From an uncultured virus (IMG/VR IMGVR_UViG_3300001592_001590) (Duplodnaviria > Heunggongvirae > Uroviricota > Caudoviricetes): DNA of 64,000 nucleotides. Positions 10,386-58,555 of this stretch are shown piece after piece. The position numbers were made by a program, and so were the translations under genes. The first letter of the stretch is position 1; the number at the start of each line of letters is the position of its first letter. The stretch lies in IMG/VR virus record IMGVR_UViG_3300001592_001590, one strand, 5' to 3'. The notes beneath the pieces are model-generated. The model did not search any database. It was not told the DNA's origin and was given only the letters and a program-made list of their open reading frames with translations.

Positions 10386-11477
10386 ATGCAGAACGACTTT
10401 TCCCCTCCTGCGGGCGCCGCGCCCGCTCCTGCTGTGCGCCTGCCCGGTGTGGCCCTGGCTGACGCGGACACCTTCTCCGGCACCGACGTCCGCTCGGAAG
10501 TGTTGGGGCAAAAGAAAGACTTACGGGCTCAGCGAGAGGACGCCTCCAACGAGGCACGTGCCTTGGCCCAGGGGGCACCAGAGCGCCAAGCCTTGTACCG
10601 CAGGGTGCAGTCCTTGCTGAGCCAGGAAGAAGCCCTGGAGGGGCTGCTCAAGTCGCAGTTCATCCCTCTGCATGGCGCACGCCAGCTGCTCAGCCCTCGC
10701 TCGCTGTTCGTCTCTCCGCTGTTTAGGGTTCGTCAGCAAAGCGATACCCCGACGAGCGGTACCTGGAGTTCTCCATCACCGCTGCCACCGGACNCGGGGG
10801 GCCAGTCCGCTACGCGGGCCCCGAACTTCGGCAATCGGATGGCCTGGTCTTCTTGGCGCTCATCAACATGGCGCGCGATGTGCGGGTGGGCAAGTCGGTG
10901 AGCTTCAGCGCCGAGGAGCTTTGTCGAGCTCTGCAAGGGCAATACAACGGCCCCGCTCGGCAACGGCTTCGCGACAGCATCCAGCGCCTGCAGCAAGCGC
11001 TCCTGAAGTTCGAGACATTCAGCGTGCAGCTGTGCCAGCGGTTTGACTACCCCTCGCAAGGGCGCTGGACAGTGGCACTGGACCCCCAAATCGTGGAGTT
11101 GTTCTCCCGAGTTCCCCCCGTGTGGCTGGACCTGGGGCGGCGCCTGAGCCTGCCGGAGGGGCTGTCCACCTGGCTGTACGCCTTCGTGGAAAGCCAGACC
11201 TCCCTCATTCCGATGAAGACCGAAGCGCTGCGGGTGCTGTGTGGCTCCGAGTCGAGTTCTCGTGCTTTCGAGAACAAGCTGCGGGACGCCCTCAAGCACC
11301 TCAATGAACACGGCGTCATCGATGAAGGCTGGAGCATTCGAGAAGGGCGTGCTGCGTTGGCGCAAGGCCCAAGCTTCATCGGCGTACGCCACCCCGGCGC
11401 TCTCCCTCGAGGCGCTCGAAACGGTGCCCCCAACCCCCGAATCCGCACCCTCTGCACCCTCCATGGGCGCCATGTAA
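10386..11477 (+). CDS. trfA: TrfA-family plasmid replication initiator (frameshifted near 10750-10800 and about 11345)
   Basis: PRSLFVSPLF, VRYAGPELRQSDGLVFLALI, L..SIQRLQ, WTVALDP.IVELF, R..L...LSTWLYAF.ES...IPMK.E.L..LCGS....RAF...L..AL..L match the TrfA pattern. Confidence 0.8.
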
Positions 11478-11521
11478 GCCCCCCAGGCTCCCTGAAAAGC
11501 GCAATTCAGTCCGCGCCTTGA

Positions 11522-12589: not shown

Positions 12590-13864
12590 ATGTCCCACGA
12601 ATTCATTGACGACCTCATTTGGCGAGGCCTCGTGCACCAATGTACCGACCTGGAGCGCCTGCGCGTGCGCATGGAGCAGGGGCCGGTGACCGTGTACTGC
12701 GGCTTTGACCCCACCGCAGCCAGCCTGCACGTGGGAAGCCTGATTCCGCTGCTGGCGCTGGCGCGTTTTCAGCAAGCGGGGCATCGGGTGCTGGCTCTCG
12801 TGGGCGGAGCCACGGGTCTGATTGGGGACCCCAGCGGCAAGTCTGCCGAGCGGGTGCTGCAGACCGAGCAAGCCGTGGCCACGCGCGCCCAGGACCTGGC
12901 GGGGCAAATCTCTCGCTTTGTCGACTTGAGCGACGCCCGCCGTGGCGCTCTCGTGAACAACCTGGAGTGGACCACGGGGCAGGGGGTGCTGGAATTTTTG
13001 CGCGACGTGGGCAAGCATTTTTCCGTCAACGCCATGGTCGCCCGTGATTCCGTGCGGTCCCGGCTGGAGCGCGAAGGGGAGGGCATATCCTTCACCGAGT
13101 TCAGCTACATGCTGCTGCAAGCCCAGGACTTCTTAAGGCTGCACGAACGCCAGGGCTGTCAACTTCAGATTGGCGGCTCGGACCAGTGGGGCAACATGTG
13201 CTCGGGGGTCGACCTCATTCGACGCGTGCGCGCCCAGGACGCGTTTGCAATGACGTTTCCTTTGCTCACGACACGTGACGGCCAGAAGTTTGGCAAGACC
13301 GTCAAAGGTGCGGTGTGGCTTGATGCGCAGCTGACGTGCGCCTGGGATTTCTTCCAGTTTTGGCTCAACGCGGAAGACGCCGACGTGGTTCGCTTCTTGA
13401 AGCTCTTCACCTTTGTGCCGCGCGCCGAGATTGAGCAACTGGAAGCCGTCACGCGGGAGGCCCCGCACGAGCGCCGTGCCCAGCGGCGCCTGGCCGTTGA
13501 GCTGACCACTTGGGTGCACGGCCCACAGGCGGCGGCCGATATGGAGGCTGTGGCCGCGGCGCTGTTTGGCAAGTCGTGCGTGTCACAGCTCTCTGCCACA
13601 GCAATGGACAGCCTGGCCCGCTCCTTGCCCTGCGCAGACTCGACACAGGTCAACGCGGACACCCGTGTTGCGGCGGCCCTGGTCGCCTTGGGCATTGAGC
13701 CGTCCATGAGCCGAGCCAATGAAGCGTTGCGAGCTGGTGCGGTGCAGCTCAACGGCACCCGCCTGGCAGGGCCTGCGGCTCTGCTCAAAGACGTGCCCGC
13801 CCTTCACGGACGGTTTTGGCTGCTTCGCAAGGGCAAAAAGACCTTTGGCATGGTCCGCTGCTGA
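12590..13864 (+). CDS. tyrS: tyrosyl-tRNA synthetase
   Basis: YCGFDPTAASLHVGS (HIGH), IGDPSGK, FSYMLLQAQDF, QIGGSDQWGN, KFGKT (KMSKS), C-terminal S4-like LLRKGKK. Confidence 0.97.
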   Translation: MSHEFIDDLIWRGLVHQCTDLERLRVRMEQGPVTVYCGFDPTAASLHVGSLIPLLALARFQQAGHRVLALVGGATGLIGDPSGKSAERVLQTEQAVATRAQDLAGQISRFVDLSDARRGALVNNLEWTTGQGVLEFLRDVGKHFSVNAMVARDSVRSRLEREGEGISFTEFSYMLLQAQDFLRLHERQGCQLQIGGSDQWGNMCSGVDLIRRVRAQDAFAMTFPLLTTRDGQKFGKTVKGAVWLDAQLTCAWDFFQFWLNAEDADVVRFLKLFTFVPRAEIEQLEAVTREAPHERRAQRRLAVELTTWVHGPQAAADMEAVAAALFGKSCVSQLSATAMDSLARSLPCADSTQVNADTRVAAALVALGIEPSMSRANEALRAGAVQLNGTRLAGPAALLKDVPALHGRFWLLRKGKKTFGMVRC

Positions 13865-23367: not shown

Positions 23368-25231
23368 TCAGGCCAGCTGAGCGTGCAGCTCGGTTTTGGC
23401 CCGGTCTTCTTCCATGCGGGCAAGACGAACTTGCAGCAGGGAGCCCGATTCCAAGACCGAGCCGTCCAGCTTCCAGCATTCCTTGTCATCGTCGTAGCGA
23501 TACCCCGCGTCCATCAGCTCTTCANNCGACAGCAGCAGCGAGCACTGCCAGGCAGCGACCACCGCACGAAGTCCGCGACGGGACTGCGACACCACGTGGG
23601 CACACAGCACCGTTCTCGGGAGAAACTTCGCGGGCCATCACGCGCTTCTTGAGCTTGTCCCACACCCAGCGCTCGGACATGCGCGCATCGCGCGAGCGCT
23701 GCGAGCAGTGTTCGCTCAGAGCGGCCAACGCCGTTTCAGGTTGGGTGTTTTCACCCAGCAACAGGCGGTGTGCCAGCAAATCAGGGTAACGCCGGATGGG
23801 GCTGGTGAAGTGCGTGTAGGACTCATAGCCCAGGGAGAAGTGCGAGGTCAGACTTTCGTCGTAAATCGCGGGCTGCATCCCGTTGCGCACCTGCAGTTCG
23901 GCCTTGAGCACGTCGTCGCCCTGAGTGGACTCAATGAGCTGCGACAGCGCCTTCATGGAGGGTTGTTCGGGCAGGGTGATACCCCGTCCTTGCGCCCACA
24001 CCTGCAGGCGGCTCCAGTCTTCGACGTCCGGTGCGGGTTGGTGGCGGAAAAATGCCGAGCCAGCCACCGAGCGCAGGCGTTGGGCCGCGCACTGGTTGGC
24101 CAGCAGCATCATCTCCTCCACCAGCTTGTGCGCATCGTTGCGTTGGCTCCAGCCCAGCTTGAACGTGCCGTCCGCGTTGAGGTCCAGCTTGGGCTCGCGG
24201 TCGTCAAATTCCAGCTGGCCACGTTCGCGACGCAGCCGGGCCATCACCTCGTAGACCTGCCACAGCGCTTGCAACGATTGCTCGATGCGGGGCGCGACCT
24301 CGAACTGCCCGTGTTTCCAGGCAAAGGTCTCCGTGTAGGTCATGCGCTGGGCCGAGCGGATGACCGCGCGGCGGAAGTGGGTCTTGCGGACTTTTCCGTC
24401 CACGTCCAGTTCAATGTCCAGCACCACGGCCAAGCGGTTTTCCCCCGGCACGAGCGAGCACACGCCGTTGGACAGCGCCTCGGGAAGCATAGGCACCGTT
24501 TTGCCGGGCAGGTAGACGGACGTGGAGCGGCGAGCCGCCACCTTGTCCAGCACCGAGCCTTCACGGACGTAGTGAGAAACGTCCGCGATAGCGACACTGA
24601 CCAGCCAGCCGTCGGCCAGGTTCTTGGCCCACAGCGCGTCATCGAAGTCCCGCGTCATCTCGCCGTCAATGGTGACGTACGGGACAGCGGTGAGGTCTTC
24701 GCGGCCCTGCATCGGGACCGTGAGGTCCTTGCACTGCGCCAGCGCACTGGCGTGGAAGTAGGGCTCAAAGTCGTAACGAGCCAGAGCGTAGTCCCCGTCA
24801 AAGCCGCTGCGACCGCGTTCGCCGAGCACACGCTCCAGCGTTGCTTGCACCTTACCACCTCGTGTACCGGCGGAGGTAAACCCCCGCACGCGCACCGAAA
24901 CCACCGTGCCTTCGGCCGCGAACTGCAGGTCACGCACTTCGATGCGCACAAAGCACGCCTCGTCGTTGTCCAGCACCCAGGTGCCTTGGTCTTGGCGCAG
25001 CACGCCCTGCCACACGCTGTCTTTGCGGCGGACAACCAAGGGACCTGCGACTTGCAGGGCCCCGGGCTTCTTGCCTTCTTCCAGGGTGAAGCTGATGCGG
25101 TCACCTGGCAGCAACTCACGCATCAGAGGCGGAGAAATGAAATGTTCGGAGGCGTCGTCACAGGTGACAAAGCCAAAGCCTTTAGGATGAGCGCTGACCA
25201 CGCCCTCGAGTTTTGTTGAAGTGTCCTTCAT
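23368..25231 (-). CDS. RNase R/RNase II family exoribonuclease (frameshift near 23610)
   Basis: N-terminal cold-shock domain HPKGFGFV; RNB motifs TIDG..TRDFDDA, IADVSHYV, VEEMMLLAN, HFSLG..YTHFTSPIRRYPDL. Confidence 0.93.
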
Positions 25232-25422
25232 GTATTTTTCTTTCTGTGTTTTTGGATTCTGCTCTAGGTATATAACCTGACAGTTCATTTTAGCTTGCTT
25301 TGGCCAAAACCTTAATATTATTTAGAGCCTTTAGATGCAAAAGCGGCCCGCTGGGGCCGCTGCAGGGGGTCGTGGGCTTGCCGCTCAGCAGGGCGTTCCG
25401 CGAAACAAGGCACGGATGTGGC

Positions 25423-25600
25423 GGGAGCCCGCTTCGAATTGACATCCTCCCCTCCCTAAAGGAAGGGGATTCCAGTCCTCACAGACTGGCCTTCCTGCTT
25501 CACCGAGGACCGCCGCCGAAGGCCTCAAGGCCCTCTTTGGTCTTACGCCCTCTCCACAGGCTTAACGTCCCGCGAGTCCCGCGGTACCGAATTGTGTCGC
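25423..25600 (-). ncRNA. putative TnpB omega/reRNA scaffold plus flank-derived guide
   Basis: Hairpin-rich sequence spanning the tnpB 3' end to the TCAA right end. The guide would be the adjacent flank TTCGAAGCGGGCTCCC. Boundaries inferred. Confidence 0.6.
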
Positions 25601-26775
25601 CGCCAGGCCTGCCAGAAGCAGGTTGCGCGCGGCGTTCGTGTCTCTGTCGTGCTCCACGCCACACACGCAGCGCCAGCGGCGCTGCGAGAGCGTGAGCTCG
25701 GCGTTCTTTGCCCCACACGCGTGGCACAGCTTGCTCGAAGCGAAGTTCTTCGGTGCCTGCCAGAAGGTGCGCCCGTACCAGCTCGCTTTGTAGGCGAGCT
25801 GGCGCAGCAGCTCACCCCAGGCCGCGTCCGAGATGGACCGCGCCAGCCGGGTGCGGATGAGTCCCTTGATGTTCAGCTGCTCCGCAAACACGGCTTGGTT
25901 TTCGCGAATGAGGCTCGCGGAGAGCTGATGGGTGAAGTTCTGGCGGGCGTCGCCGACCCGGGCGTGCAAGCGTGCCAGGCGCCGGCGCGCCTTGGCTCGG
26001 TTCTTCGAGCCCTTGACCTTGCGGCTGAGCGCCTGAGCCGCTCGTTTGACGCGGTCCAGGAGCTTGACCAAGAACTTAGGCGGCGAGAGCTTCTCGCCGT
26101 GCTGGTCGACGATGTAGCTCTGCAGCCCCAGGTCGATGGCTTTGACCGCCTCGACCTGCGGCAAGGGCGCCACGGCCTCCTCGCACAGAAAGCTCACGAA
26201 GTAGCGGCCGGCGCTGTCGCGGCTGACCACGGCCTGGCTCGGGGCACTGGGCAGAGCGCGCGACCAGCGCACCTGCACGGGCCCGTCGAAGCGTGCGAGA
26301 AAGAGCTGACCGTCCTTCACGCGAAAGCCGTGTCGCATGAGCGTCACAGCCTGGCGCTCGTGCTTGGACTTGAAAGAGGGGTAGCGCCCCCGCCCCGAAA
26401 AGAAGTTCTGGAACGCCTGGCTCAGGTGCTTGAGCGATTGCTGCAGCACGATGTTGGAGACGTCGCCGAGCCAGGTCTTGTCGGGCTCTTGCTTCAAAGC
26501 GGTGAGGGCCTTGCAGTCTTTGGCGTAGGTGGAGCCTTGCTGGTGCTCCTTCCACGCCGCGCTGCGCGCGGCCAGGAAGTGGTTATAGACAAAGCGCGCA
26601 CAGCCGAAGGCCTGCCCAGGGAAAGCTTTTGGGCTTCGCTGGGGTAAAAGCGGAACTTGTACGCGCGATGAATCATGAGAGGGCTTTAAGTATAGACCTT
26701 AAAGCGCTTTAAAGGCAAGGCCTTGCGCCGCTGACCCCGCCCTGAAGAGACGGGGCTTGCGCGGCGCGGCAGGGC
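25439..26775 (-). mobile_element. IS200/IS605-family (IS1341-like, tnpB-only) insertion sequence
   Basis: Right end ...CCCTTCCTTTAGGGAGGGGAGGATGTCAA ending at 25439. Left-end hairpin AAGCCCCGTCTCTTCAGGGCGGGG at 26735-26758. No tnpA. Left boundary approximate. Confidence 0.85.
25562..26676 (-). CDS. tnpB: TnpB RNA-guided endonuclease (frameshift near 26625)
   Basis: RAYKFRFYP, FGCARFVYN, RuvC-I AIDLG, RuvC-II AEQLNIKG, CHACG/CVCG zinc ribbon, RuvC-III HDRDTNAARN. Confidence 0.93.
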
Positions 26776-37857: not shown

Positions 37858-38179
37858 ATGCATCAAGTCCTTGTCACCATTGACACTCAGGGCGCGGTTC
37901 AGGTCAAAGCGACATCCGCGCAGGTTCAGGTATTGGTTTTTGCGAGAAGCAGGCCCCGACACAGGCGCAACCCTGCAGGTCGATGGCACCGCGTACGAGG
38001 CCGCAGCGGTGTTGGAAGGCATTGCGCAAGTTGATGAAGTCGAGGTGCAAGCCGCGTTTCAGAGCGTGGCGCCTGAGCTGGAGCGCCTAAGCCGGGCGGC
38101 AGACCAGTCGATGCGGTCGCGGGCGCAGCTCAAAACGCTGGCGCGACAGCTGGCGCGCGCTGAGACCGACCCGGGTTGA
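37858..38179 (+). CDS. hypothetical protein (frameshift in T-run near 37940)
   Basis: AGGAG RBS, MHQVLVTIDTQG.. joining frame 37871-38179. Confidence 0.55.
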
Positions 38180-38238
38180 GTGGACCCGGGCACGTCTGCC
38201 GGTTTCTCCTGGAAGGCTAAAACCAGCCGCTTTACTGG

Positions 38239-38310
38239 TTACGAGGCCTTGGTCAGGGTTCCTTCTAACCTCATCACTTATTTGAACCTACCCGGCCGCT
38301 TTCCTCGTGA
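38239..38310 (+). ncRNA. structured RNA motif, copy 1 (free-standing)
   Basis: TTACGAGG/CCTCGTGA outer stem enclosing GGTCAGGGTTC-CTTCTA...GAACCTACCCGGCC. Core nearly identical to 40559-40621. Confidence 0.6.
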
Positions 38311-38401
38311 CCCGCAATCCGCGACCCAAGCCCTGCTTGAGCCGCGGTTTTTGCTTTTGGGGCGGCCAAAAAGAGGCCGCCTGCGATGCAGGCGGCGTGA
38401 A

Positions 38402-38820
38402 TCAAGCGGTGGCGTTCAGCACAGGTCTGACCAGCTGAGGCTGGCGACAATTGCTGTAAGGCGTTGCAGTGGCCGGGTCGCTGAAGAAGCTCTCAGGCCC
38501 GGACACCGCCAGTTGCTGGCGTTGCGAAGCGAGCCAGGGCTCCAAGTCCTGGGGGTGCGCCGGCGCTTCGATGGACAACGCCTCCACGTCGTACGATGGC
38601 CAGTCGCGCCCTTGACCGGAACGCATTTGGTTCGCAGCACAGCGCGCACAAATTCCCCCGACGATTGAAGGTAGACCACCATGCGTTGCAGCAAAGGGCC
38701 TTGGACAAAGTCCCACTCCTCAAACCGCTGGGCGCAGTCGCTTACCGTGCCTCCCGAGCGAAAGCGAAAGCCTTGCTCTTGTAGCCATGAGGGCCAGGGT
38801 GTCTTTAGACTGGCAGTCAT
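38402..38820 (-). CDS. hypothetical protein (probable frameshift)
   Basis: MTASLKTPW.. with GGAG RBS and GCTACAC motif. Confidence 0.5.
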
Positions 38821-38920
38821 CTCACATCTCCAAAGTTTTCCTGTTGCGTGTAGCGAAAACCCTGGACAGGCGAAATAGATTTGGCTAAAATGACCAAAAC
38901 ATTTAGAGTTTAAAAATACA

Positions 38921-39211
38921 ATGACAGTTTCCCTGCAACAGCGATTTGAGTCGTTCGCCGACCAGTACAAGAAGTTTGAGCACATTCCCGCCCCGCGCCA
39001 TCCGCGGCCCGATGTGTGCGCGTATTTGCTGTTGCACGAGCTGGTACCGGGCGCCCAGAACATGGTCAGCGCCGCGGTCCATGATGAAATTTACCTGAGC
39101 GTGGATTGTGGCGAGCTGCATCAAGCGGCCACCGATGCACACATTGAAGAGCTGGTGCGTTGTGGCGTGCGCTACATTGGCGACTTCGACTGCCTGGGCA
39201 TGTTCGTCTGA
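38921..39211 (+). CDS. phage-type hypothetical protein
   Basis: RPDVCAYLLL..L.PG..NMVSAA.HDEIYL...ELVRCGV. Confidence 0.65.
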   Translation: MTVSLQQRFESFADQYKKFEHIPAPRHPRPDVCAYLLLHELVPGAQNMVSAAVHDEIYLSVDCGELHQAATDAHIEELVRCGVRYIGDFDCLGMFV

Positions 39212-39246
39212 ACCCCTTTCTTTGCAACCCCAACACAATAAGAACC

Positions 39247-39534
39247 ATGCAACTTCTGTCTTTGAACGACATCCGCAGCCTGCACAACCGACTGCCCCCT
39301 TCTCGCTCGCCCGTTGAGTTTGCTCAGGCTGTGGTCAACCTCGTAGGCACCTGGGCCCAGCGGACCCAGCGCCCGTACCGCAGCTTCACCGTGGACGCGT
39401 CCTGGGTGCGCGCGCAGTGGGAGGGGCTCACTCGCGCGCACAGCGGCTACGATGCCGCGGTGCAGCTGGCGCAGACGATGGAAACCCTGGTCCTGTCTCC
39501 CGCTGTGGGCGGCTCGGCGCAAAGCGGCTACTGA
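39247..39534 (+). CDS. hypothetical protein
   Basis: 95-aa ORF followed by hairpin at 39565-39595. Confidence 0.5.
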   Translation: MQLLSLNDIRSLHNRLPPSRSPVEFAQAVVNLVGTWAQRTQRPYRSFTVDASWVRAQWEGLTRAHSGYDAAVQLAQTMETLVLSPAVGGSAQSGY

Positions 39535-39608
39535 GTCTCTGCCCCTTCGATACCCGACAACAACAAGCCCCGCGTTCCGAAAGGAAGCGGGGCTTAATCA
39601 CAAGGGGC

Positions 39609-40376
39609 TCAAAGCTGGTTCACGGCTGCCACAAAACTGTCCAGGTCGCAGCCATACAGGCCCGCGGAATTGGCCGAGTTCAGCTCCAGGACACGAGGCC
39701 CTGCGCTCGTCATGGCCACGTCCAGGGTGTACGCCCGGTTGGGACTCCAGACCTTGCTGCAATGCTGCGCAAACGCCCACACATCCGCGGGCACCGGTCG
39801 GTCGGTGCGCGCCCGGTCTCCCAGCTTGTACAAGGAGGCGGCCACGACCCGGCCGTCGATGACTAAGGTGCGGTATTCCGCTTCAATGGGCACCAGGGAG
39901 GCCACGGCCACCCGGTTGCTCAGGCGCAGCGTCGCATCCGGCTCATCCGCCACCCGGGCAACGCCTTCGCGAAAGGCCTGCAACTCGAGCCCGTTCATCA
40001 CACTGCCCGCGAAGGCCTTGTTGTCCAGCACGGGGCGGATGAAAAACGGGCCGTCCAGCGCTTGTGCGTCCTGCAGCGTTGAGCAGGTGGCGTTGGCGTT
40101 GAGCGCCAACTCGCCGTAGCGCTGCAGCATCAGCTCGTAGTCGAGATTTTCGTCGAAATACCCCGGGTTCCAGCCCTGAGCTTTGGCCACCTGGCCCAGC
40201 CCGGTACTGCCGTACACAAACACAGGCTCGTGCAGGACAGGCGCCGGGCCGTCCAGCACGTTGAACAAAGGGATGAGCTTGACCTGGGTGAATGGCGTGC
40301 GCTGGCGCGCCAAGGCCTCACACAGGTCTTGTAAAGAGCGGGGGTTGAGCAAATTGCTCTGCACTATCCAATGCAT
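39609..40376 (-). CDS. ATP-grasp protein (DUF4343/R2K-like)
   Basis: FFIRP....KAFAG.V, I.AEYR..VIDG.VV..SLY, AYTLDVA......VLELNS.NS.GLY. Confidence 0.8.
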   Translation of the reverse strand: MHWIVQSNLLNPRSLQDLCEALARQRTPFTQVKLIPLFNVLDGPAPVLHEPVFVYGSTGLGQVAKAQGWNPGYFDENLDYELMLQRYGELALNANATCSTLQDAQALDGPFFIRPVLDNKAFAGSVMNGLELQAFREGVARVADEPDATLRLSNRVAVASLVPIEAEYRTLVIDGRVVAASLYKLGDRARTDRPVPADVWAFAQHCSKVWSPNRAYTLDVAMTSAGPRVLELNSANSAGLYGCDLDSFVAAVNQL

Positions 40377-40481
40377 GGTGTCATTTTTTAGAGTTCCAGC
40401 TCAGTTTAGCAACGCCGATACGAATAGTTTTTTGGATAGTTTCAGTCTTTCGAGATAGCTCTAGTCCCAACCAATATTCTG

Positions 40482-40494
40482 TAAGTTGTTGATT
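40482..40494 (-). promoter_or_regulatory. IHF binding site
   Basis: Reverse strand AATCAACAACTTA is an exact match to WATCAANNNNTTR, 18 bp upstream of the sigma54 site. Confidence 0.7.
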
Positions 40495-40512
40495 TTAAAG
40501 CATGTGGGCACC

Positions 40513-40528
40513 TGGCACGCTGATTGCA
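40513..40528 (+). promoter_or_regulatory. sigma54 (-24/-12) promoter
   Basis: TGGCACGCTGATTGCA matches TGGCACG-N4-TTGC(A/T) exactly. Confidence 0.85.
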
Positions 40529-40558
40529 ATAAATTACTTGTCGCTGGCGACAGCGGCA

Positions 40559-40621
40559 GAGGCTTCGGCTCAGGGTTCCTTCTACTTCAACTCTTAATGA
40601 ACCTACCCGGCCACTTCCCTC
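40559..40621 (+). ncRNA. structured RNA motif, copy 2 (between sigma54 promoter and CDS)
   Basis: GAGGCTTCGGCTCAGGGTTCCTTCTA-14 nt-TGAACCTACCCGGCCACTTCCCTC. Confidence 0.65.
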
Positions 40622-40644
40622 AACCTCTACTCGAAGACTGTCCC

Positions 40645-42732
40645 ATGAAAACGCTTGTACTGTTGGCTCACCAATTCGTCGACCTGTCCCTGGACCCCAA
40701 CGCGGGCTCTCAGGTCCGGCGCGCTCGAGGGGTGGACGCGTCCAGTGCGCTGGGAACGGTCTTGGCCAATCTGGCGTACTTTGGCTATGCCCCGTCGCTG
40801 GAAGTCTTGGCGCAGTGGCGCGGCTGGAGCGCTGAGCAGCTGTGCGTCTGGTGGGAGATGCGAGAGCCCCATTTTCGCAGCTTCACGGGAGCGGACCGCC
40901 AGATGGACCGGTTCGTCGTCTATAAGAACTTTCCAAAGGAAGTCCTGGGCATGTCTCAAGCGCAATACTGGACGGCGCAGCTGTTCATGTACCTGGGCGC
41001 GCCCAACGAGTGGTTCACCCAAGAGGAGCAGACCCGCCCGGCGCTGGACGAGCGCCTGCGCCTGAAGACCTTGGCCCTGGCGCAAGCGGACACGCTTCAA
41101 CGCCTTTACGACTCGATGGTGGGCTCCAAGGCTCGCTGGACAGAGCCGCAGGCCGCTTATGCCCTCTTTTTGGCCAAGGACCTGGGCGTGCGAGCCCTGG
41201 ACCTGGCGGATTTTGGTTTCAAAGAAAACGGGGTCACCTTGATGGCCCGCCTGCTTGACGCTCAACTTGCGCTGCGGGTGCACGACGCCACCGACGTGGC
41301 GCGCCTGGCGGCCGCCTTGTCCGGACAGGACGTCTCGCTGCGAACTGCCGTGCGCTTTCGCCACTTTGCCCGCCCTCAACGGCGCCAGCTGTTGGCCCTG
41401 CTTGAGCAGTGCAAGAACCTGGAAGCCGACTTTGCGATGCGTGAGTCACTGTGGAAGCAGCTCCTGCGTGGGCTGCGCCCCGGGGACTACGCCTTCAAGC
41501 GGGTTCAATCCGCTTACGACTTGCTGTACCGCGGCTGCCTGGAGACATTTTCGGCCAGCATCGAGTCGGGCCTCTTTCACAAGGACGCTCGGGTAGTCGA
41601 GCGGGCCGCATCGCGCCCGGGCGACTTTGTGCGCCGGCTGCACAAGCTCTACGCCCTGTTCCCCGCTCAGACCGTGGCCGCTTTGGACAAGGTGGTCGAT
41701 AAGCTGCAGGTGATGCAGCTGCTCAAGCTGCGCAACTACCTGGTGAGCGTGCGGGGACGCGCCTACTTCTTGCATGCGCCCAAGGGCAACTGGTCCAAGG
41801 CACGCCTGGCCGCCAACACCAAGGCCACCCTGGAGCCCGCCGACTTGTCGGCCATGCTGGCCAGCATCGACCGGGTCTTGGAGGCTCGCCTGCGCGCTCA
41901 GCTGCCTCAAGGGGTGGATTTGGACCTGGCCACCGATGAAGTGAAGCTTCAGGCGAACGACCAGGAGTTGGCACCGTATGGCCGAGGTACTGCCTTCCCG
42001 TTGCCGGCGTCCGCCCGGTTTGTCCGCACTGCAAGCTACTGGGCCACGCAGCGCACTGGCAACGTCTGGTTCGACAACTCGTTCAACTTCTTTGACGAGC
42101 AGTGGCACTCCGTTGGAACCTGTTGCTGGAACGTGACCAATGACTTCGGGGCAGGCGCGGTGTTCTCAGGCGACCCCACCAACTCCAAGGACATGCAGGG
42201 CCGGGCTTGCCAGCTGATTGACCTCAACCTGGATGAGCTGGCACGCCGGGGCGTGCGCTACGCGGTGTGGAGCGTTCTGGGCTTCAGCCACATGTGCTTC
42301 TCCGACGCGGATGACGTGTTGGCCACGCTGCAGTGGGGAGAAGACCCCTGCGCGGGCAAGCTCTATGAGCCCGCCCGGGCCCAGATGGTGTTTCCGCTCA
42401 AAGGCAAGAGCCTCACCAAGTACGTGGCCTATGTGGATGTCGTGGAAAAGCGCCTGGTGTACCTGGACGCCAACCTGCGTGGTGCGGTCAACTCGGCTGC
42501 GTCCAACGGGGCGCACCTGTCCACGGTCATGCCCGCCTTCGATGGAGTACCTCAAGGCGCTGCCCTCTGTGGCGGACCTGATGGTGCACGCGCCCCGAAG
42601 GCAGCGTGCCCGTGCGCTACGACGCGACGCGAGACGGCCGCCGTGGACGAAGGCCAGCTCGCCTACGTGTTCCGTCCGGTGAACCCGGCCAGCCAGTTCA
42701 AACCGCTGTCGCTGGAGCGGTTGTTGGGCTGA
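40645..42732 (+). CDS. large alpha-helical protein with C-terminal TerD-like domain (resembles MXAN_6230/SCO0854-type proteins), minor frameshifts near 42545-42600
   Basis: YKNFP..V, RPGDFVRRL, VRTASYW..WFDNS, AVFSGDPTNS, ACQLIDLNL..L...GVRYAV..V..FS. Confidence 0.7.
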   Translation: MKTLVLLAHQFVDLSLDPNAGSQVRRARGVDASSALGTVLANLAYFGYAPSLEVLAQWRGWSAEQLCVWWEMREPHFRSFTGADRQMDRFVVYKNFPKEVLGMSQAQYWTAQLFMYLGAPNEWFTQEEQTRPALDERLRLKTLALAQADTLQRLYDSMVGSKARWTEPQAAYALFLAKDLGVRALDLADFGFKENGVTLMARLLDAQLALRVHDATDVARLAAALSGQDVSLRTAVRFRHFARPQRRQLLALLEQCKNLEADFAMRESLWKQLLRGLRPGDYAFKRVQSAYDLLYRGCLETFSASIESGLFHKDARVVERAASRPGDFVRRLHKLYALFPAQTVAALDKVVDKLQVMQLLKLRNYLVSVRGRAYFLHAPKGNWSKARLAANTKATLEPADLSAMLASIDRVLEARLRAQLPQGVDLDLATDEVKLQANDQELAPYGRGTAFPLPASARFVRTASYWATQRTGNVWFDNSFNFFDEQWHSVGTCCWNVTNDFGAGAVFSGDPTNSKDMQGRACQLIDLNLDELARRGVRYAVWSVLGFSHMCFSDADDVLATLQWGEDPCAGKLYEPARAQMVFPLKGKSLTKYVAYVDVVEKRLVYLDANLRGAVNSAASNGAHLSTVMPAFDGVPQGAALCGGPDGARAPKAACPCATTRRETAAVDEGQLAYVFRPVNPASQFKPLSLERLLG

Positions 42733-42829
42733 ACCGCTTGAGCCGCTTGGGTCCGGTTTGGGCCACAAAACAGGGCGCTGCGTCCCTGTTTTGTGGCTTT
42801 CTTTATGGCGGCGGACAGCTCAACGAGCC

Positions 42830-46094: not shown

Positions 46095-46421
46095 CTATCG
46101 TTTGCGATTGCTCATCTTCACGCTCTCGTAGAAGTCCGTTGGTTTCTTCTTGACCCAGGCCACGAACTTTTGAACCTCCGGATGCTCCAGCAACGCCGCT
46201 GCGGTGTTGTAGCGCTGTGCCAGCTCAGCCTCTGTGAAGAGGGCATGAATCTGGCGGTGGCAGATGCGGTGCAGGGTCTGGGTCTCCTTGCCTCCTTTAA
46301 GCTTGGGCACCAAGTGGTGCTCATCGCGCTGTGACTGAGGAATCTCTCGTTCGCACAAGGGACAGACCGTCGGCGGCTCGGGTTGGTACCAAGCCACCTC
46401 AGGAACACGTTTTCGCGCCAC
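46095..46421 (-). CDS. small HNH endonuclease-like protein
   Basis: CPLCER...HHLVPK.KGG....LHRICHRQIH..F...EL. GTG start 4 nt after the ligase stop. Confidence 0.8.
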   Translation of the reverse strand: MARKRVPEVAWYQPEPPTVCPLCEREIPQSQRDEHHLVPKLKGGKETQTLHRICHRQIHALFTEAELAQRYNTAAALLEHPEVQKFVAWVKKKPTDFYESVKMSNRKR

Positions 46422-46425
46422 CGCC

Positions 46426-47560
46426 TCAGCCCTCCATGGCCTCGGCGAGCGCACCATCGGCCAGCACGCGCAGGCTGAACTCCTGGCGCAGACGGTTCTT
46501 GATGAACCAGTCCTTGACGGTCCACTTCCTGCCCCAGGTAGTGTGCCATCATCAGACCGAACAGCGGGTGGCTCTTGTGCTCCATCGCGAACGATTTTCG
46601 GTCCAGGTGCCGAGATTTCGCCACGGTCGCTTCGATTTCTTCGGTGAGCTCCACCATGCGTCGTTTGACGCGGCTTTCGACCTCCAGCACCGGTTGCATG
46701 TCCACGCCGGACTCGGCCAAGGCACCTACNNGNTNTACGNNCAGCACTTCGGTCAGCGCGGCCACCGCGATGTCGCGTTCGCGCAGAAACGTGATGCTGC
46801 GGTGCAAGCGCAGGTACCAGGGGCACTTGAGCTTGACCATGTCGCCGTTGGCGAACTGCAGCACGTAGCCTTCTTGCTCAGCCATGGCATCCAGCGAGGC
46901 CAGAACTTGCGGCAGGCTCATGCCGGTAAACCGCGGCGCCAGAGTCACCCCGATGCTGACGCAGCATCGCGTGGATGCGATGCTGTTCGTCCAGCAGCAC
47001 ATACTGGCCCGTTGCGTTGTCGCGCACGTGCAGCAGGCGCAGCTGAGGCTTGTCTTGGGCCACGACGATGCGTGCCTGCGGGTGCGTCAGCTCAAAAATG
47101 GCCGTCATGCCTTGCGAGGCGACCTCAGTGGCAAACGCCACCAGGTGCTCCTGCCCCGGCTGGCGCAGAAAGTCTTGCGTGAGCTTGACCACATCCGACT
47201 GGAAGGACTTCTTGGAGCGCCAATGCAGCGCGCCGTCCACCCAGGCCGTGGCCATCATGGAGCCGTCGAGTTTTTCGAACACCGCGACCAGGTCATCTCG
47301 CTGCAGCAGACGGTCTGCCGTGAGCCAGGCCTTTTCGCCGAGGTTGAAAAACTTGTGCAACGGCCGAGAGCAGATGCGGCCCTCTTGGTCGAACGCGATA
47401 CCGCGGCACTCCAGCGCTTCGGGGCTGTCAAAGGTGGCGCTGTCCATGAACAAGTAGCAGCCGACCGTGACGCCGTTGGCTTGGGGCTGAAAACGTAATT
47501 TCTTTTTNGTGGNCGACCGCAGGCTGAACGTCTGCGAGTCGATGGATTGCTTTAAACGAC
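46426..47560 (-). CDS. T4 Rnl1-like RNA ligase (several frameshifts/Ns, start uncertain)
   Basis: ECRGIAFD, SRPLHKFFNLGE, motif I EKLDGS, FEL..P..RIV, EGYV, VKLKC.WY..LH. Confidence 0.88.
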
Positions 47561-49990: not shown

Positions 49991-50477
49991 TCAGATGCCC
50001 CACATTTCGACCGTGCCTTCGTCGAAATCGATGCTCACTTTGCGCCCGGATTTGAACCGTTCGCAGGCACCTGCCACACGAATCACGGGAACACTCTCTT
50101 CTCGGCTGACCACCACCAGGTGAGCCAGCTTGGAGCCGGTCTCCACGATGACTGCCTTGGCTTGCATCGCAGCCGGGGCAAATTCAGGGGCGGCTTTGGC
50201 CAACACCAGAATCTTGTCCTTGCTGGCCTCTGCGGGGTCGTGGGTCACTTCCCCCCAGACAACGCTTGCTTTGCCGCGCGCCAGGATGTCGAACGAGCAG
50301 CTCAGCAACTTCCTTTGCAGGTTGTAGAGCTCCTCCATGAACAGTACGTTGCTCCGGAATTTCGTCGTCGTAGGCGTCTTCGGGCTGAAGGCCCGCGCCA
50401 ATCCACGCATCCGAATGCCAGCGGTCGTCGTTGTACATCTTCAGCCCGGAGGGGCATCGCACATCGTAGTCCGGCAT
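49991..50477 (-). CDS. stand-alone PEP-utilising mobile (phosphohistidine swivel) domain protein (frameshift near 50340)
   Basis: AVIVETGSKLAHLVVVSREESVPVI.V.GA...F..G..V.ID. Confidence 0.7.
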
Positions 50478-58111: not shown

Positions 58112-58555
58112 TCACAGTAGGTGGATGAGCCTTTTGTAGTGAGCCCATTGCAGCCCGTCCTCAAAGTGCGTGAGCACCAGGTGAGGCTGCTGAGGCGCCA
58201 AATAGTCGTCGTGGTCGTCCACGATGGCGTACTTCTCGACGTTGCCATGGCGCTCCAGCCAGGCAAGCACTTCGTGACCGCGGCTGTGGTCAGCCAGCGT
58301 GGGGGTGACGTCCAGGATGTCCAGCTCGAGCATCTCCTGAAGCTCTTGCCGGGTATGGCGTTCCCGCCAGCTGCTGCAAATCACCACCCGGGCCCCGGTC
58401 TCGAAACACAGCTTGCGCACCAGCCCGAGGGCAACAGCGTCAAGCTTGCTTGGGTCCGTGGGGTGTTGGGGGTCGACCGGGCCACCCTGGGCCACACAAC
58501 TGCGGGTGCTCAGGAGCACCCCGTCGATGTCCAGAAACAGAACTTTGATGCCCAT
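58112..58555 (-). CDS. HAD phosphatase, Swiss-Army-Knife RNA-repair-like (HAD_SAK_2)
   Basis: VLFLDIDGVL, VVICSSWR, RG.EV..WL, YAIVDD, L.T...GL. Confidence 0.85.
   Translation of the reverse strand: MGIKVLFLDIDGVLLSTRSCVAQGGPVDPQHPTDPSKLDAVALGLVRKLCFETGARVVICSSWRERHTRQELQEMLELDILDVTPTLADHSRGHEVLAWLERHGNVEKYAIVDDHDDYLAPQQPHLVLTHFEDGLQWAHYKRLIHLL

What the first reader, a model, noticed from the sequence alone, without database searches (positions are those of the whole stretch)
40400..42732. sigma54/IHF-driven structured RNA plus helical-TerD protein: candidate undescribed ribonucleoprotein (Ro60/Y-RNA-analogous) stress or RNA-repair system
Seen: an exact IHF site (40482-40494) and an exact sigma54 promoter (40513-40528). 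After the predicted start (about 40539) come a short inverted repeat TGTCGC-TG-GCGACA, a ~63-nt motif that folds into a long interrupted hairpin (GGTTC/GAACC inner stem, GGC/GCC and GAGG/CCTC outer stems, pyrimidine-rich loop starting CTTCTA), and then a ~695-aa protein with a helical N-terminus and TerD-like C-terminus. The RNA motif recurs at 38239-38310. Established: the rsr(Ro60)-yrl(Y RNA)-rtcBA RNA-repair operon of Salmonella is sigma54-dependent and activated by RtcR, and Y RNAs are long stems with pyrimidine-rich loops bound by a helical ring protein. Inference: this protein may bind these small RNAs as a functional analogue of Ro60/Y RNA, induced by a host or element enhancer-binding protein. 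None is encoded in this window; repeated (G/A)ATAG words at 40417-40460 could be its UAS.
Basis: partly seen in the sequence, partly recalled or inferred. Interest (0 to 1): 0.9.

Follow-up and report, generated by a model that had tools for sequence, protein, structure and literature searches.

The report
New Y-RNA-like RNA with TerD protein
A previously undescribed family of small structured RNAs sits, in one to eight copies, beside a large unannotated protein in many bacteria and giant phages, and the pair looks like a second version of the Ro60/Y-RNA particle that handles damaged RNA.

Summary
The ~70-nt motif (window 38240-38310 and 40556-40625) belongs to a structured ncRNA family. It has helix P1, an internal loop (CCAU opposite GCUUU), helix P2 and an invariant UUCCUUCU at the 5' side of the apical loop. 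It is absent from Rfam 15.

- **Linkage:** a covariance model found it in 77 of 95 further loci that encode a homologue of the 695-aa protein. All 173 hits lie on the gene strand, upstream or downstream, with 1-8 copies per locus.
- **Covariation:** 88% of cells pair, against 55% in shuffles.
- **Reverse test:** 17 of 17 model-confirmed RNA hits, found by RNA pattern alone, lie on contigs that encode the protein.
- **Y RNA link:** three family members carry, in the loop, a tRNA-like module that matches Rfam YrlA.
- **Promoter:** the sigma54 promoter, IHF site and CTATC/GATAG repeats are conserved in the closest sister loci, with the predicted start at or just upstream of the RNA's 5' end.

Binding and function are inferred, not shown.

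The parts
38240..38310 (+). ncRNA copy A (P1, internal loop, P2, UUCCUUCU loop); stands alone, 2.3 kb upstream of the CDS
   Evidence: Covariance model R1 scores it 65.4 bits, E 1.2e-15 and 2.3e-16 with filters off. Single-sequence fold z -4.13.
38319..38358 (+). Terminator-like hairpin (CCGCG...CGCGG) with a U-run after copy A
   Evidence: Read from the sequence and from the fold of 38225-38365. The simple terminator scan does not list it because the loop is longer than 8.
40417..40460 (.). Repeated GATAG/CTATC-type words; candidate binding sites (UAS) for an enhancer-binding protein
   Evidence: Comparable CTATC/GATAG repeats, some as inverted pairs, lie at the same place upstream of the sigma54 site in L047, L049, L050 and L066. 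Their function is inferred.
40482..40494 (-). IHF consensus site
   Evidence: Exact WATCAANNNNTTR match. AAGTYGTTGATTT-like stretch at the same place in L047 and L066, a weaker version in L049; none evident in L050.
40513..40528 (+). Sigma54 (-24/-12) promoter; predicted start near 40539
   Evidence: It is the only exact match in the window. Sites with at most 1 mismatch lie 26-29 nt before an RNA copy in L047/L048, L049, L050 and L066, and 35 nt before one in L017.
40539..40552 (+). Short inverted repeat at the predicted 5' end of the transcript; specific to the window
   Evidence: It is absent from the sister loci, where the RNA starts 26-29 nt after the promoter.
40556..40625 (+). ncRNA copy B, in the leader of the CDS with no terminator before the ATG
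   Evidence: R1 scores it 42.2 bits, E 5.4e-9 and 1e-9.
40645..42732 (+). CDS of 695 aa: helical-repeat N-domain (about residues 1-430) plus TerD-fold C-domain (about residues 453-633)
   Evidence: It matches phrog_33734 at 1.2e-142.
42541..42635 (+). Stretch carrying 6 single extra bases relative to near-identical contigs of other samples. It garbles about 30 residues but keeps the frame open.
   Evidence: The DNA contig of run X5 and the RNA-library contig of X15 lack one base at each of 42541, 42597, 42621, 42623, 42631 and 42635. Every homologue in alignment A2 reads differently there.
42760..42799 (+). Intrinsic terminator after the CDS (16-bp stem)

Best explanation
The locus encodes a two-part ribonucleoprotein.

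**The RNA.** It is a ~70-nt ncRNA with a conserved platform: helix P1, an internal loop (CCAU opposite GCUUU), helix P2 and an invariant single-stranded UUCCUUCU. The apical module varies. Usually it is a plain hairpin; in three relatives it is a YrlA-type tRNA-like domain.

**The protein.** It is a ~700-aa protein with an alpha-helical repeat N-domain that resembles the Ro60 ring and a TerD-fold C-domain where Ro60 has a vWA domain.

**Proposed working (inferred).** The protein binds the conserved platform. The variable module then acts as an adaptor or decoy that brings in, or distracts, other RNA-handling factors such as tRNA-recognising enzymes, exoribonucleases or anticodon nucleases. This is the role Y RNA plays for Ro60.

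**Regulation in the window's clade.** Copy A is a stand-alone gene with its own terminator. Copy B and the protein are transcribed together from a sigma54 promoter with an IHF site and CTATC/GATAG upstream sites. Their induction would therefore need an enhancer-binding protein that was not found in the window. This parallels the RtcR/sigma54-driven rsr-yrlBA-rtcBA operon.

**Shown:** the RNA structure, the specific two-way genomic linkage, the folds, and the conservation of the promoter. **Inferred:** direct binding, the inducing signal, and the role in RNA quality control or phage-host conflict.
For: 1. **Conserved structure.**
   - On 35 instances, 85.0% of cells pair against 65.0% in shuffles (0 of 500 shuffles reach it). 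13 of 15 pairs show compensatory change, and slid controls give 47-54%.
   - RNAalifold predicts the same two helices on its own.
   - On 114 distinct sequences from other loci, 88.1% pair against 54.7%, 14 of 15 pairs are compensatory, and slid controls give 46-52%. 111 of the 114 are not training sequences.
2. **Linkage from the protein side.** 29 of the first 30 loci have the RNA; these are training data. Of 95 further loci, 77 have at least one hit, and all 173 hits are on the gene strand. After collapsing duplicates this is 61 of 78 groups.
3. **An independent gene, not a leader.** Of the 77 loci, 59 have the RNA upstream only, 16 downstream only and 2 on both sides, with 1-8 copies per locus. 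Opposite-strand cases are L013, L025 and L017. Terminators follow many copies.
4. **Linkage from the RNA side.** A scan of viral contigs with an RNA pattern alone gave 23 loci, of which the model confirmed 17. Fifteen of the 17 encode the protein within 3.5 kb, including relatives of only 23-27% identity. The other two lie on contigs that hold the gene.
5. **Whole superfamily.** The RNA also lies beside a true MXAN_6230/SCO0854 RING-branch gene and beside second paralogues.
6. **Y RNA link.** Rfam YrlA positions 23-86 (the tRNA-like module) match inside the loop of the new motif in L017 (44.3 bits, E 9.8e-7), L135 (40.7 bits) and L143 (37.1 bits). Folds show a T arm, a closed acceptor stem and a D arm nested in P1/P2.
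7. **Two parallel pairs in one genome.** All 5 genomes checked also hold a TROVE gene flanked by its own YrlA- or Y-RNA-type matches (below Rfam's gathering scores). The new model has 0 hits there.
9. **Sigma54.** 7 of the 32 sites found in 960 kb lie 26-43 nt before an RNA copy on the same strand. In four sister loci these sites are preceded by CTATC/GATAG repeats, and in three of them also by an IHF-like site.
Against: - No experiment and no modelled complex shows that the protein binds the RNA.
- TROVE homology is not supported by sequence. Pfam gives 0 families, hhalign against a 5-sequence TROVE alignment gives E 0.17, and Foldseek on the N-domain finds nothing at E<=0.001.
- The C-domain is TerD, not vWA.
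- 18 of the 95 loci have no model hit. Ten of these are cut off on one flank, and L113 has weak copies. Six loci with a full 3 kb on each side have none.
- The two window copies lack a tRNA-like module.
- Most loci have no sigma54 site.
- No protein-coding neighbour is conserved that would point to a pathway.
- Contigs from RNA libraries cover the locus but cannot prove transcription.
Confidence: 0.65

Rival explanations
1. The motif is a cis-acting leader or operator. The protein, or a metabolite, binds its own mRNA leader to control translation, and there is no stable RNP.
For: Copy B ends 20 nt before the ATG with no terminator and no evident Shine-Dalgarno sequence. In 59 of the 77 loci with hits, the copies lie upstream only.
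Against: Sixteen loci have the RNA only downstream of the stop codon. L013 and L025 have it on the opposite strand. Arrays reach 8 copies. Terminators separate the RNA from the gene in L001, L005 and L006. Copy A lies 2.3 kb from the CDS with genes in between. One copy (L140) lies about 15 kb from the gene.
Confidence: 0.1
2. The pair is a type III toxin-antitoxin-like system. The tandem RNAs hold an otherwise harmful protein in check, as ToxI repeats do for ToxN.
For: Tandem RNA arrays lie upstream of a gene with a terminator in between. The system occurs on phages and mobile DNA.
Against: The copies within an array are divergent paralogues with compensatory changes, not near-identical short repeats. 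Arrays also lie downstream. No nuclease or other toxin fold was found in the protein. The features of type III systems are recalled from memory, not tested here.
Confidence: 0.07
3. The RNAs work with the canonical Ro60 (TROVE) protein encoded elsewhere, or on their own as tRNA mimics. The TerD protein would then be only a co-regulated neighbour.
For: All 5 genomes tested also encode a TROVE protein, against 2 of 14 control genomes. Three of the RNAs carry a YrlA-type module.
Against: The TROVE genes in those genomes have their own YrlA- or Y-RNA-type matches (below Rfam's gathering scores) next to them, and the new model finds 0 hits there. The new RNA follows the TerD-family gene across phyla, phage contigs, paralogues and the RING branch.
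Confidence: 0.07
4. The variable loops are guides, and the protein-RNA complex targets nucleic acids by base pairing, as a guide-RNA system would.
For: Arrays hold a constant scaffold with variable inserts of about 20-35 nt.
Against: Many variable inserts are themselves stable hairpins closed by tetraloops, or are tRNA-like domains, rather than open single strands. No nuclease domain was found. No search for targets was made.
Confidence: 0.04

Closest known systems
Ro60 (Rsr, TROVE) with Y RNA / YrlA (Rfam RF02553)
   Same: - A large protein with a helical-repeat domain plus a second globular domain is encoded next to one or more ~70-130-nt ncRNAs.
- Each RNA has a conserved stem and a variable module.
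- In three members that module matches YrlA's tRNA-like domain.
- Several different RNAs can accompany one protein.
- The system is found in bacteria and phages.
- Ro60 structures are the only long structural matches to the N-domain.
   Different: - There is no TROVE match by Pfam or hhalign.
- The C-domain is TerD, not vWA.
- The RNA stem is different and carries an invariant UUCCUUCU; Rfam YrlA positions 1-22 and 87-114 are not matched.
- The window copies have no tRNA-like domain.
- Arrays reach 8 copies.
- Both systems coexist in the same genomes, each with its own RNA.
rsr-yrlBA-rtcBA operon of Salmonella (sigma54, RtcR)
   Same: ncRNA and protein are co-transcribed from a sigma54 promoter that needs an enhancer-binding protein. 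The operon is described in passages read from PMC7790460. In the window the elements are at 40417-40625.
   Different: No RtcR, RtcB or RtcA lies at the locus, and no enhancer-binding protein was found among the 71 window ORFs scanned. The upstream sites are CTATC/GATAG repeats whose binding protein is unknown. The RNA precedes the protein gene.
TerD family (PF02342; PDB 2qz7, 2kxt, 3ibz)
   Different: The Pfam TerD model does not match. The domain is fused to a 430-residue helical domain. The gene is not part of a ter operon.
MXAN_6230/SCO0854 family RING domain-containing protein (NCBIfam NF041916)
   Same: It shares the helical-plus-TerD core: 155.8 bits over residues 299-629, and TM 0.80 over residues 1-440 in the Atlas. 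The RNA also lies 55 nt upstream of a true member in locus L156.
   Different: The score is far below the family cut-off of 600 bits, and the window protein has no RING domain.
Type III toxin-antitoxin arrays (ToxIN; recalled from memory)
   Same: Tandem small RNAs lie beside a protein gene, often with a terminator in between.
   Different: The copies are divergent and structured, about 70 nt long, and can lie on either side of the gene. The protein is about 700 aa and has no nuclease fold.

Membership tests
Ro60 / TROVE protein (PF05731) | Match to the TROVE profile | tested here: not met
   Pfam gives 0 families for P0001 at E<=0.01. hhalign of the family alignments against a 5-sequence TROVE alignment gives E 0.17 and 0.28, probability below 1%.
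Ro60 / TROVE protein (PF05731) | Ring of HEAT-like repeats superposable on solved Ro60 structures | tested here: inconclusive
Ro60 / TROVE protein (PF05731) | C-terminal vWA domain | tested here: not met
Y RNA / YrlA (RF00019, RF02553) | Rfam model match at the gathering score | tested here: not met
   The window gives no match at gathering score or at E<=10. The relatives L017, L135 and L143 match only model positions 23-89, at 37-44 bits against a gathering score of 69.
Y RNA / YrlA (RF00019, RF02553) | tRNA-like domain (T arm, closed acceptor stem, D arm) | tested here: not met
   It is absent from both window copies. It is present in 3 relatives of the RNA family.
Y RNA / YrlA (RF00019, RF02553) | Encoded next to a TROVE gene | tested here: not met
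   Model R1 gives 0 hits in the 7 loci around TROVE genes of 5 genomes. The RNA lies beside the TerD-family gene instead.
TerD domain (PF02342) | TerD beta-sandwich fold | tested here: met
TerD domain (PF02342) | Match to the Pfam TerD profile | tested here: not met
   Pfam gives 0 families.
Sigma54-dependent promoter | GG at -24 and GC at -12 with exact spacing, placed in front of a transcript | tested here: met
   An exact site lies at 40513-40528 and is unique in the window. Sites with at most 1 mismatch lie 26-29 nt before the RNA in L047/L048, L049, L050 and L066, and an exact site lies 35 nt before it in L017.
Sigma54-dependent promoter | Upstream activator sites, a bending site and an enhancer-binding protein | tested here: inconclusive
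   An IHF-like site recurs in 3 of the 4 sister loci and CTATC/GATAG repeats in all 4. No Sigma54_activat domain was found among the 71 window ORFs scanned, which is not an exhaustive set.
Sigma54-dependent promoter | rpoN-dependent transcript | not testable with these tools
   The runs laid are contigs, which show neither transcript starts nor strand.
NF041916 MXAN_6230/SCO0854 RING family | Score above the curated cut-off and presence of a RING domain | tested here: not met
   The score is 155.8 bits against a cut-off of 600. Only profile positions 386-727 are matched, and there is no RING hit.
Type III toxin-antitoxin | Near-identical short tandem RNA repeats upstream of a small endoribonuclease | tested here: not met
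   The copies in an array differ and covary. The protein is 695 aa with TerD and helical folds. The definition of the family is recalled from memory.

The most novel reading that the evidence does not exclude
This would be a second Y-RNA-type ribonucleoprotein superfamily that has so far gone unrecognised. A Ro60-like helical domain is fused to TerD (and, in one branch, to a RING domain). It is partnered by arrays of UUCCUUCU-loop RNAs whose swappable apical modules include tRNA mimics. The system runs in parallel with canonical Ro60/YrlA in the same cells. Giant phages carry it next to their tRNA arrays, where it could serve as adaptors or decoys in conflicts over tRNA damage.
Probability: 0.5. 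Interest if true: 0.9.

Novelty: new variant of a known kind. Interest (0 to 1): 0.85.

Why it matters
Ro60/Y RNA is the only known particle of its kind in bacteria, and its working is still unclear (passages of PMC7790460). A second, sequence-unrelated or very distant version offers three things:

- **An independent test case.** It has a different RNA platform, a TerD domain in place of vWA, and up to eight RNA partners per protein. It can show what such particles need in order to work.
- **Annotation.** It gives a function-bearing label to a protein family of 1608 clusters at 50% identity. That family is labelled only 'hypothetical' in phage records and in the source names seen for its homologues.
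- **A new RNA family.** The family is absent from Rfam 15.

It also offers a defined RNA partner for a TerD-fold domain, and it links sigma54 control to an RNA-protein pair outside the rtc operon.

Tried and rejected
- **Own genome:** none is held for the window, so genome-wide copy number could not be counted.
- **PDB by sequence:** no match for the protein.
- **Foldseek on the N-domain alone:** nothing at E<=0.001.
- **hhalign against TROVE:** not significant. The single local stretch it aligned falls on a His-Pro-containing helix in both families. I treat that as a hint only.
- **Protein Atlas:** it returned only relatives of the same superfamily and no TROVE cluster.
- **Gene neighbourhood:** 148 flanking ORFs from 40 loci show no conserved neighbour. 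RNA-repair-type genes appear only here and there: HAD_SAK_2, T4 RNA ligase 1, the PNKP HAD domain, cREC_REC, EF-Tu and MYG1.
- **Expression:** the stretch occurs in 20 runs from 11 studies. The four runs laid are all contigs. RNA-library contigs cover both RNA copies and the CDS but cannot show transcription, ends or strand. One apparent opposite-strand joint carries adapter letters and is an artefact.
- **Literature:**
  - No paper holds both YrlA and TerD.
  - No paper mentions SCO0854 or MXAN_6230.
  - TROVE plus TerD gave only unrelated papers and two comparative-genomics papers by title. In one of them (PMC7824862, passages read) the two are treated separately; the other was seen only in the listing.
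  - Of 148 papers containing UUCCUUCU, the 15 listed had no bacterial RNA by their titles.
  - A search for TerD with 'RNA motif', 'noncoding RNA' and 'covariation' (at least 3 of the 4 terms) listed 15 papers, none of which contained TerD.
  - YrlA plus phage plus tandem gave only the 2014 YrlA paper and a Gifsy-1 paper.
  - Subscription-only papers and supplements were not searched.
- **Earlier findings of this scan:** nothing by sequence, by words or by place.
- **Pattern hits:** 6 of the 23 pattern-only hits in viral contigs were not confirmed by the model, and none of the 6 has the protein nearby. I count them as chance matches.
Full report
**What is in the window.**
- The region reads as the first stage described it.
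- An exact sigma54 -24/-12 site lies at 40513-40528. It is the only exact match in the 64 kb, and the pattern loosened to 2 mismatches is not enriched (36 found, 51.8 expected).
- An exact IHF consensus lies at 40482-40494, and a short inverted repeat at 40539-40552.
- A ~70-nt motif follows at 40556-40625, and a 695-aa ORF at 40645-42732. A 16-bp-stem terminator lies at 42760-42799.
- The motif recurs at 38240-38310 and is followed there by a hairpin with a U-run.
- No tRNA and no Rfam family is found in the window at gathering scores. No Rfam family matches 38150-40700 even at E<=10.
- The window is 61% G+C and looks like a giant phage or a phage-plasmid. It carries a phage-type TyrRS, an RNB exoribonuclease, a TnpB, a split T4-type RNA ligase 1, an RNA-repair HAD domain, a TrfA-like protein, HNH nucleases and an R2K ATP-grasp gene divergent from the CDS.
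- No whole genome is held for it.

**The protein.**
- P0001 has no Pfam family and no PDB relative by sequence.
- It matches phrog_33734 (function unknown) at 1.2e-142.
- It partly matches NCBIfam NF041916 (MXAN_6230/SCO0854 RING family) at 155.8 bits, against a cut-off of 600.
- Full-length homologues of about 700 aa are common: 261 at E<=1e-3 among the candidates scored. In the library of 50%-identity representatives there are 1608 clusters at E<=1e-3, 1140 at 1e-10 and 271 at 1e-30.
- The genome loci come from Alpha-, Beta-, Gamma- and 'Delta'-proteobacteria/Myxococcota, Cyanobacteria, Actinomycetota and Chloroflexota. Homologues also occur in the giant Xanthomonas phages XacN1 (46% identity) and Xoo-sp13, where they are annotated as hypothetical.
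- AlphaFold2 with 40 homologues gives pLDDT 86.7 and pTM 0.84.
- My reading is therefore 'Ro60-like N-domain possible, not shown; TerD C-domain shown'.

**The RNA is a real, conserved, structured family.**
- A word search for the loop sequence in the first loci found it next to the homologue in several phyla.
- An alignment of 35 instances supports two helices separated by an internal loop. 85.0% of cells pair against 65.0 +/- 1.3% in shuffles (0 of 500 reach it). 13 of 15 pairs show compensatory change, and slid controls give 47-54%.
- RNAalifold predicts the same helices on its own (13 pairs, 11 with compensatory change).
- A covariance model built from this alignment finds only the two known copies in the window, also with filters off.
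- On 95 further loci (two phage records, 13 IMG/VR loci, 80 metagenome loci) it gives 173 hits at E<=0.1. Every hit is on the gene strand and lies directly upstream or downstream of the gene.
- 77 of the 95 loci have at least one hit. After collapsing duplicates this is 61 of 78 groups, two of which duplicate training loci.
- Of the 18 loci without a hit, 10 lack one flank, L113 has three weak copies, L116 duplicates L118 (which has hits) and is itself cut off just inside the gene, and six with full 3-kb flanks have none.
- The 150 best hits comprise 114 distinct sequences, of which 111 are not training sequences; median similarity to the nearest training sequence is 0.72. On these, 88.1% of cells pair against 54.7% in shuffles, 14 of 15 pairs are compensatory, and slid controls give 46-52%. 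This alignment was fitted to the model, which favours the structure somewhat.
- 113 of the 114 carry the exact octamer. The model itself favours the octamer, so this count is partly circular.

**It is an independent gene, not mainly a leader.**
- Of the 77 loci, 59 have copies upstream only, 16 downstream only and 2 on both sides.
- Copies per locus are: 1 (25 loci), 2 (28), 3 (13), 4 (6), 5 (3), 6 (1) and 8 (1).
- In the first set, L013 and L025 have the RNA downstream on the opposite strand, and L017 has it upstream and divergent.
- In L001, L005 and L006 an intrinsic terminator separates the RNA or RNAs from the gene, which has its own ribosome-binding site.
- Many phage copies end in a U-run right after P1; 31 of 114 have a run of four or more T within 12 nt of the 3' end.
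- In the window, copy A is separated from the CDS by 2.3 kb and several ORFs.

**The linkage holds in both directions and across the superfamily.**
- A scan of viral contigs with an RNA pattern alone gave 23 loci, and the model confirmed 17 of them.
- Fifteen of the 17 encode a relative of the protein within 3.5 kb, ten of them at only 23-28% identity. The remaining two, L140 and L145, lie on contigs that hold the gene.
- The six unconfirmed pattern hits have no protein nearby.
- In genomes that carry the gene, the RNA also sits beside a true RING-branch member (L156, 55 nt upstream, 48.5 bits) and beside second paralogues (L158, L159).

**The link to Y RNAs.**
- In L017 (Myxococcota) the loop of one copy contains a circularly permuted tRNA-like module: T arm, acceptor stem closed by a short loop, then D arm. 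It matches Rfam YrlA positions 23-86 at 44.3 bits, E 9.8e-7, below the gathering score of 69.
- ARAGORN finds no tRNA there, so this is not the tandem-tRNA artefact that the YrlA authors warn about (passages of PMC4201824).
- The same module occurs in two viral contigs, L143 (37.1 bits, inside a model hit) and L135 (40.7 bits), nested in P1/P2.
- In both contigs the gene lies next to arrays of seven (L143) and ten (L135) tRNA genes.
- All five genomes tested also encode a canonical TROVE protein elsewhere, against 2 of 14 control genomes.
- Each of those TROVE genes has its own YrlA- or Y-RNA-type matches beside it, all below Rfam's gathering scores, and those RNAs have different stems. The new model has no hit there.
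- Two protein-RNA pairs therefore coexist, each RNA beside its own protein.

**Regulation.**
- Across 960 kb of held sequence, 32 sites match the sigma54 consensus with at most one mismatch. Seven of them (six distinct loci) lie 26-43 nt upstream of an RNA copy on the same strand: the window, L017, L047/L048, L049, L050 and L066.
- Apart from L017, these are loci whose proteins are about 53-54% identical to the window's.
- All four sister loci have CTATC/GATAG-type repeats upstream of the sigma54 site. L047, L066 and, more weakly, L049 also have an IHF-like site (AAGTYGTTGATTT); none is evident in L050. The predicted start falls at the RNA's 5' end.
- In L050 and L066 a first RNA copy with its own terminator precedes this block, the same order as in the window.
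- No enhancer-binding protein was found among the 71 window ORFs scanned.
- The parallel is the sigma54/RtcR-dependent rsr-yrlBA-rtcBA operon, which is induced by tRNA fragments (passages of PMC7790460).
- Most loci of the family show sigma70-like -10 boxes instead. I read these by eye; they were not tested.

**Other samples.**
- Near-identical sequence occurs in 20 runs from 11 studies, from hydrocarbon, groundwater, soil, wastewater, sludge and lake samples.
- A DNA contig 99% alike (X5) spans the whole stretch. It lacks single bases at 42541, 42597, 42621, 42623, 42631 and 42635, and at 38595 and 38605.
- This explains why about 30 residues near the C-terminus differ from every homologue, including one that is 94-96% identical. 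The window most likely carries assembly or sequencing errors there.
- RNA-library contigs cover both RNA copies and the CDS, but contigs cannot prove transcription.

**Verdict.**
- Shown: a new structured ncRNA family, its specific two-way linkage to a TerD-containing protein superfamily, shared modules with YrlA, and a conserved sigma54/IHF control region in the window's clade.
- Inferred: that the protein binds the RNA, that the N-domain is a true Ro60 relative, and that the particle works in RNA quality control, repair or phage-host conflict.
- I found no description of this RNA or of the pair in Rfam 15 or in the searched literature.

Noticed in passing
window 42541-42635; also 38595, 38605, 38912, 40418: The window carries single extra bases relative to near-identical contigs from other samples. 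These are probably assembly or sequencing errors. Other split genes in the window may have the same cause.
   Followed up: partly
window 46118-47002(-) and 46878-47453(-): A T4-type RNA ligase 1 (PF09511, phrog_562) is split into two overlapping ORFs that match profile positions 215-352 and 49-201. This is either a frameshift or a sequencing error.
   Followed up: no
window 39609-40376(-): An R2K-clade ATP-grasp gene (PF14243, phrog_7313) lies divergent from the sigma54 region. A PEP-utilizers mobile (swivelling) domain lies at 49991-50410(-). Neither is a conserved neighbour of the family.
   Followed up: partly
window 23522-25288(-), 12590-13864(+), 58112-58555(-), 25562-26497(-), 10853-11521(+): The window encodes an RNB-family exoribonuclease, a phage-type tyrosyl-tRNA synthetase, a HAD domain of 'Swiss Army Knife' RNA repair proteins, a TnpB (OrfB_IS605) and a TrfA-like replication protein. 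Together they give the element an RNA-metabolism flavour.
   Followed up: no
L126-L130 (handles G001-G005): Canonical TROVE genes in the same genomes are preceded by YrlA-like RNAs that score below Rfam's gathering threshold (36-44 bits). In L126 the TROVE gene is flanked on both sides by tRNA or tRNA-like hits and has a Y_RNA match (34.4 bits) upstream.
   Followed up: partly
L135 126-1294, L142 5904-6938(-), L143 430-1196, L155 2115-3448: Large tRNA gene arrays (7-10 genes) lie directly beside the TerD-family gene and its RNA array in high-GC viral contigs.
   Followed up: no
L014, L019, L020, L022, L024: 30-60 nt upstream of the gene: The Dactylosporangium loci share a conserved AAACGSCTTTGACCG stretch just upstream of the gene. 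It is probably a promoter -35 element or an operator.
   Followed up: no
L004 7796-7811(+): A second exact sigma54 consensus site lies 1.7 kb downstream of the gene in the Agitococcus locus and is not next to an RNA copy.
   Followed up: no
L156 (handle G005), L158/L159 (G001/G002): The RING-domain branch (NF041916, 888 bits) and the 760-aa second paralogues also have the RNA beside them. Some genomes therefore hold two or more such protein-RNA pairs.
   Followed up: partly
L076 2594-2699 and 2708-2809; L044 6191-6279: Some copies carry longer apical inserts of 30-50 nt that are not tRNA-like. Their structure was not worked out.
   Followed up: no
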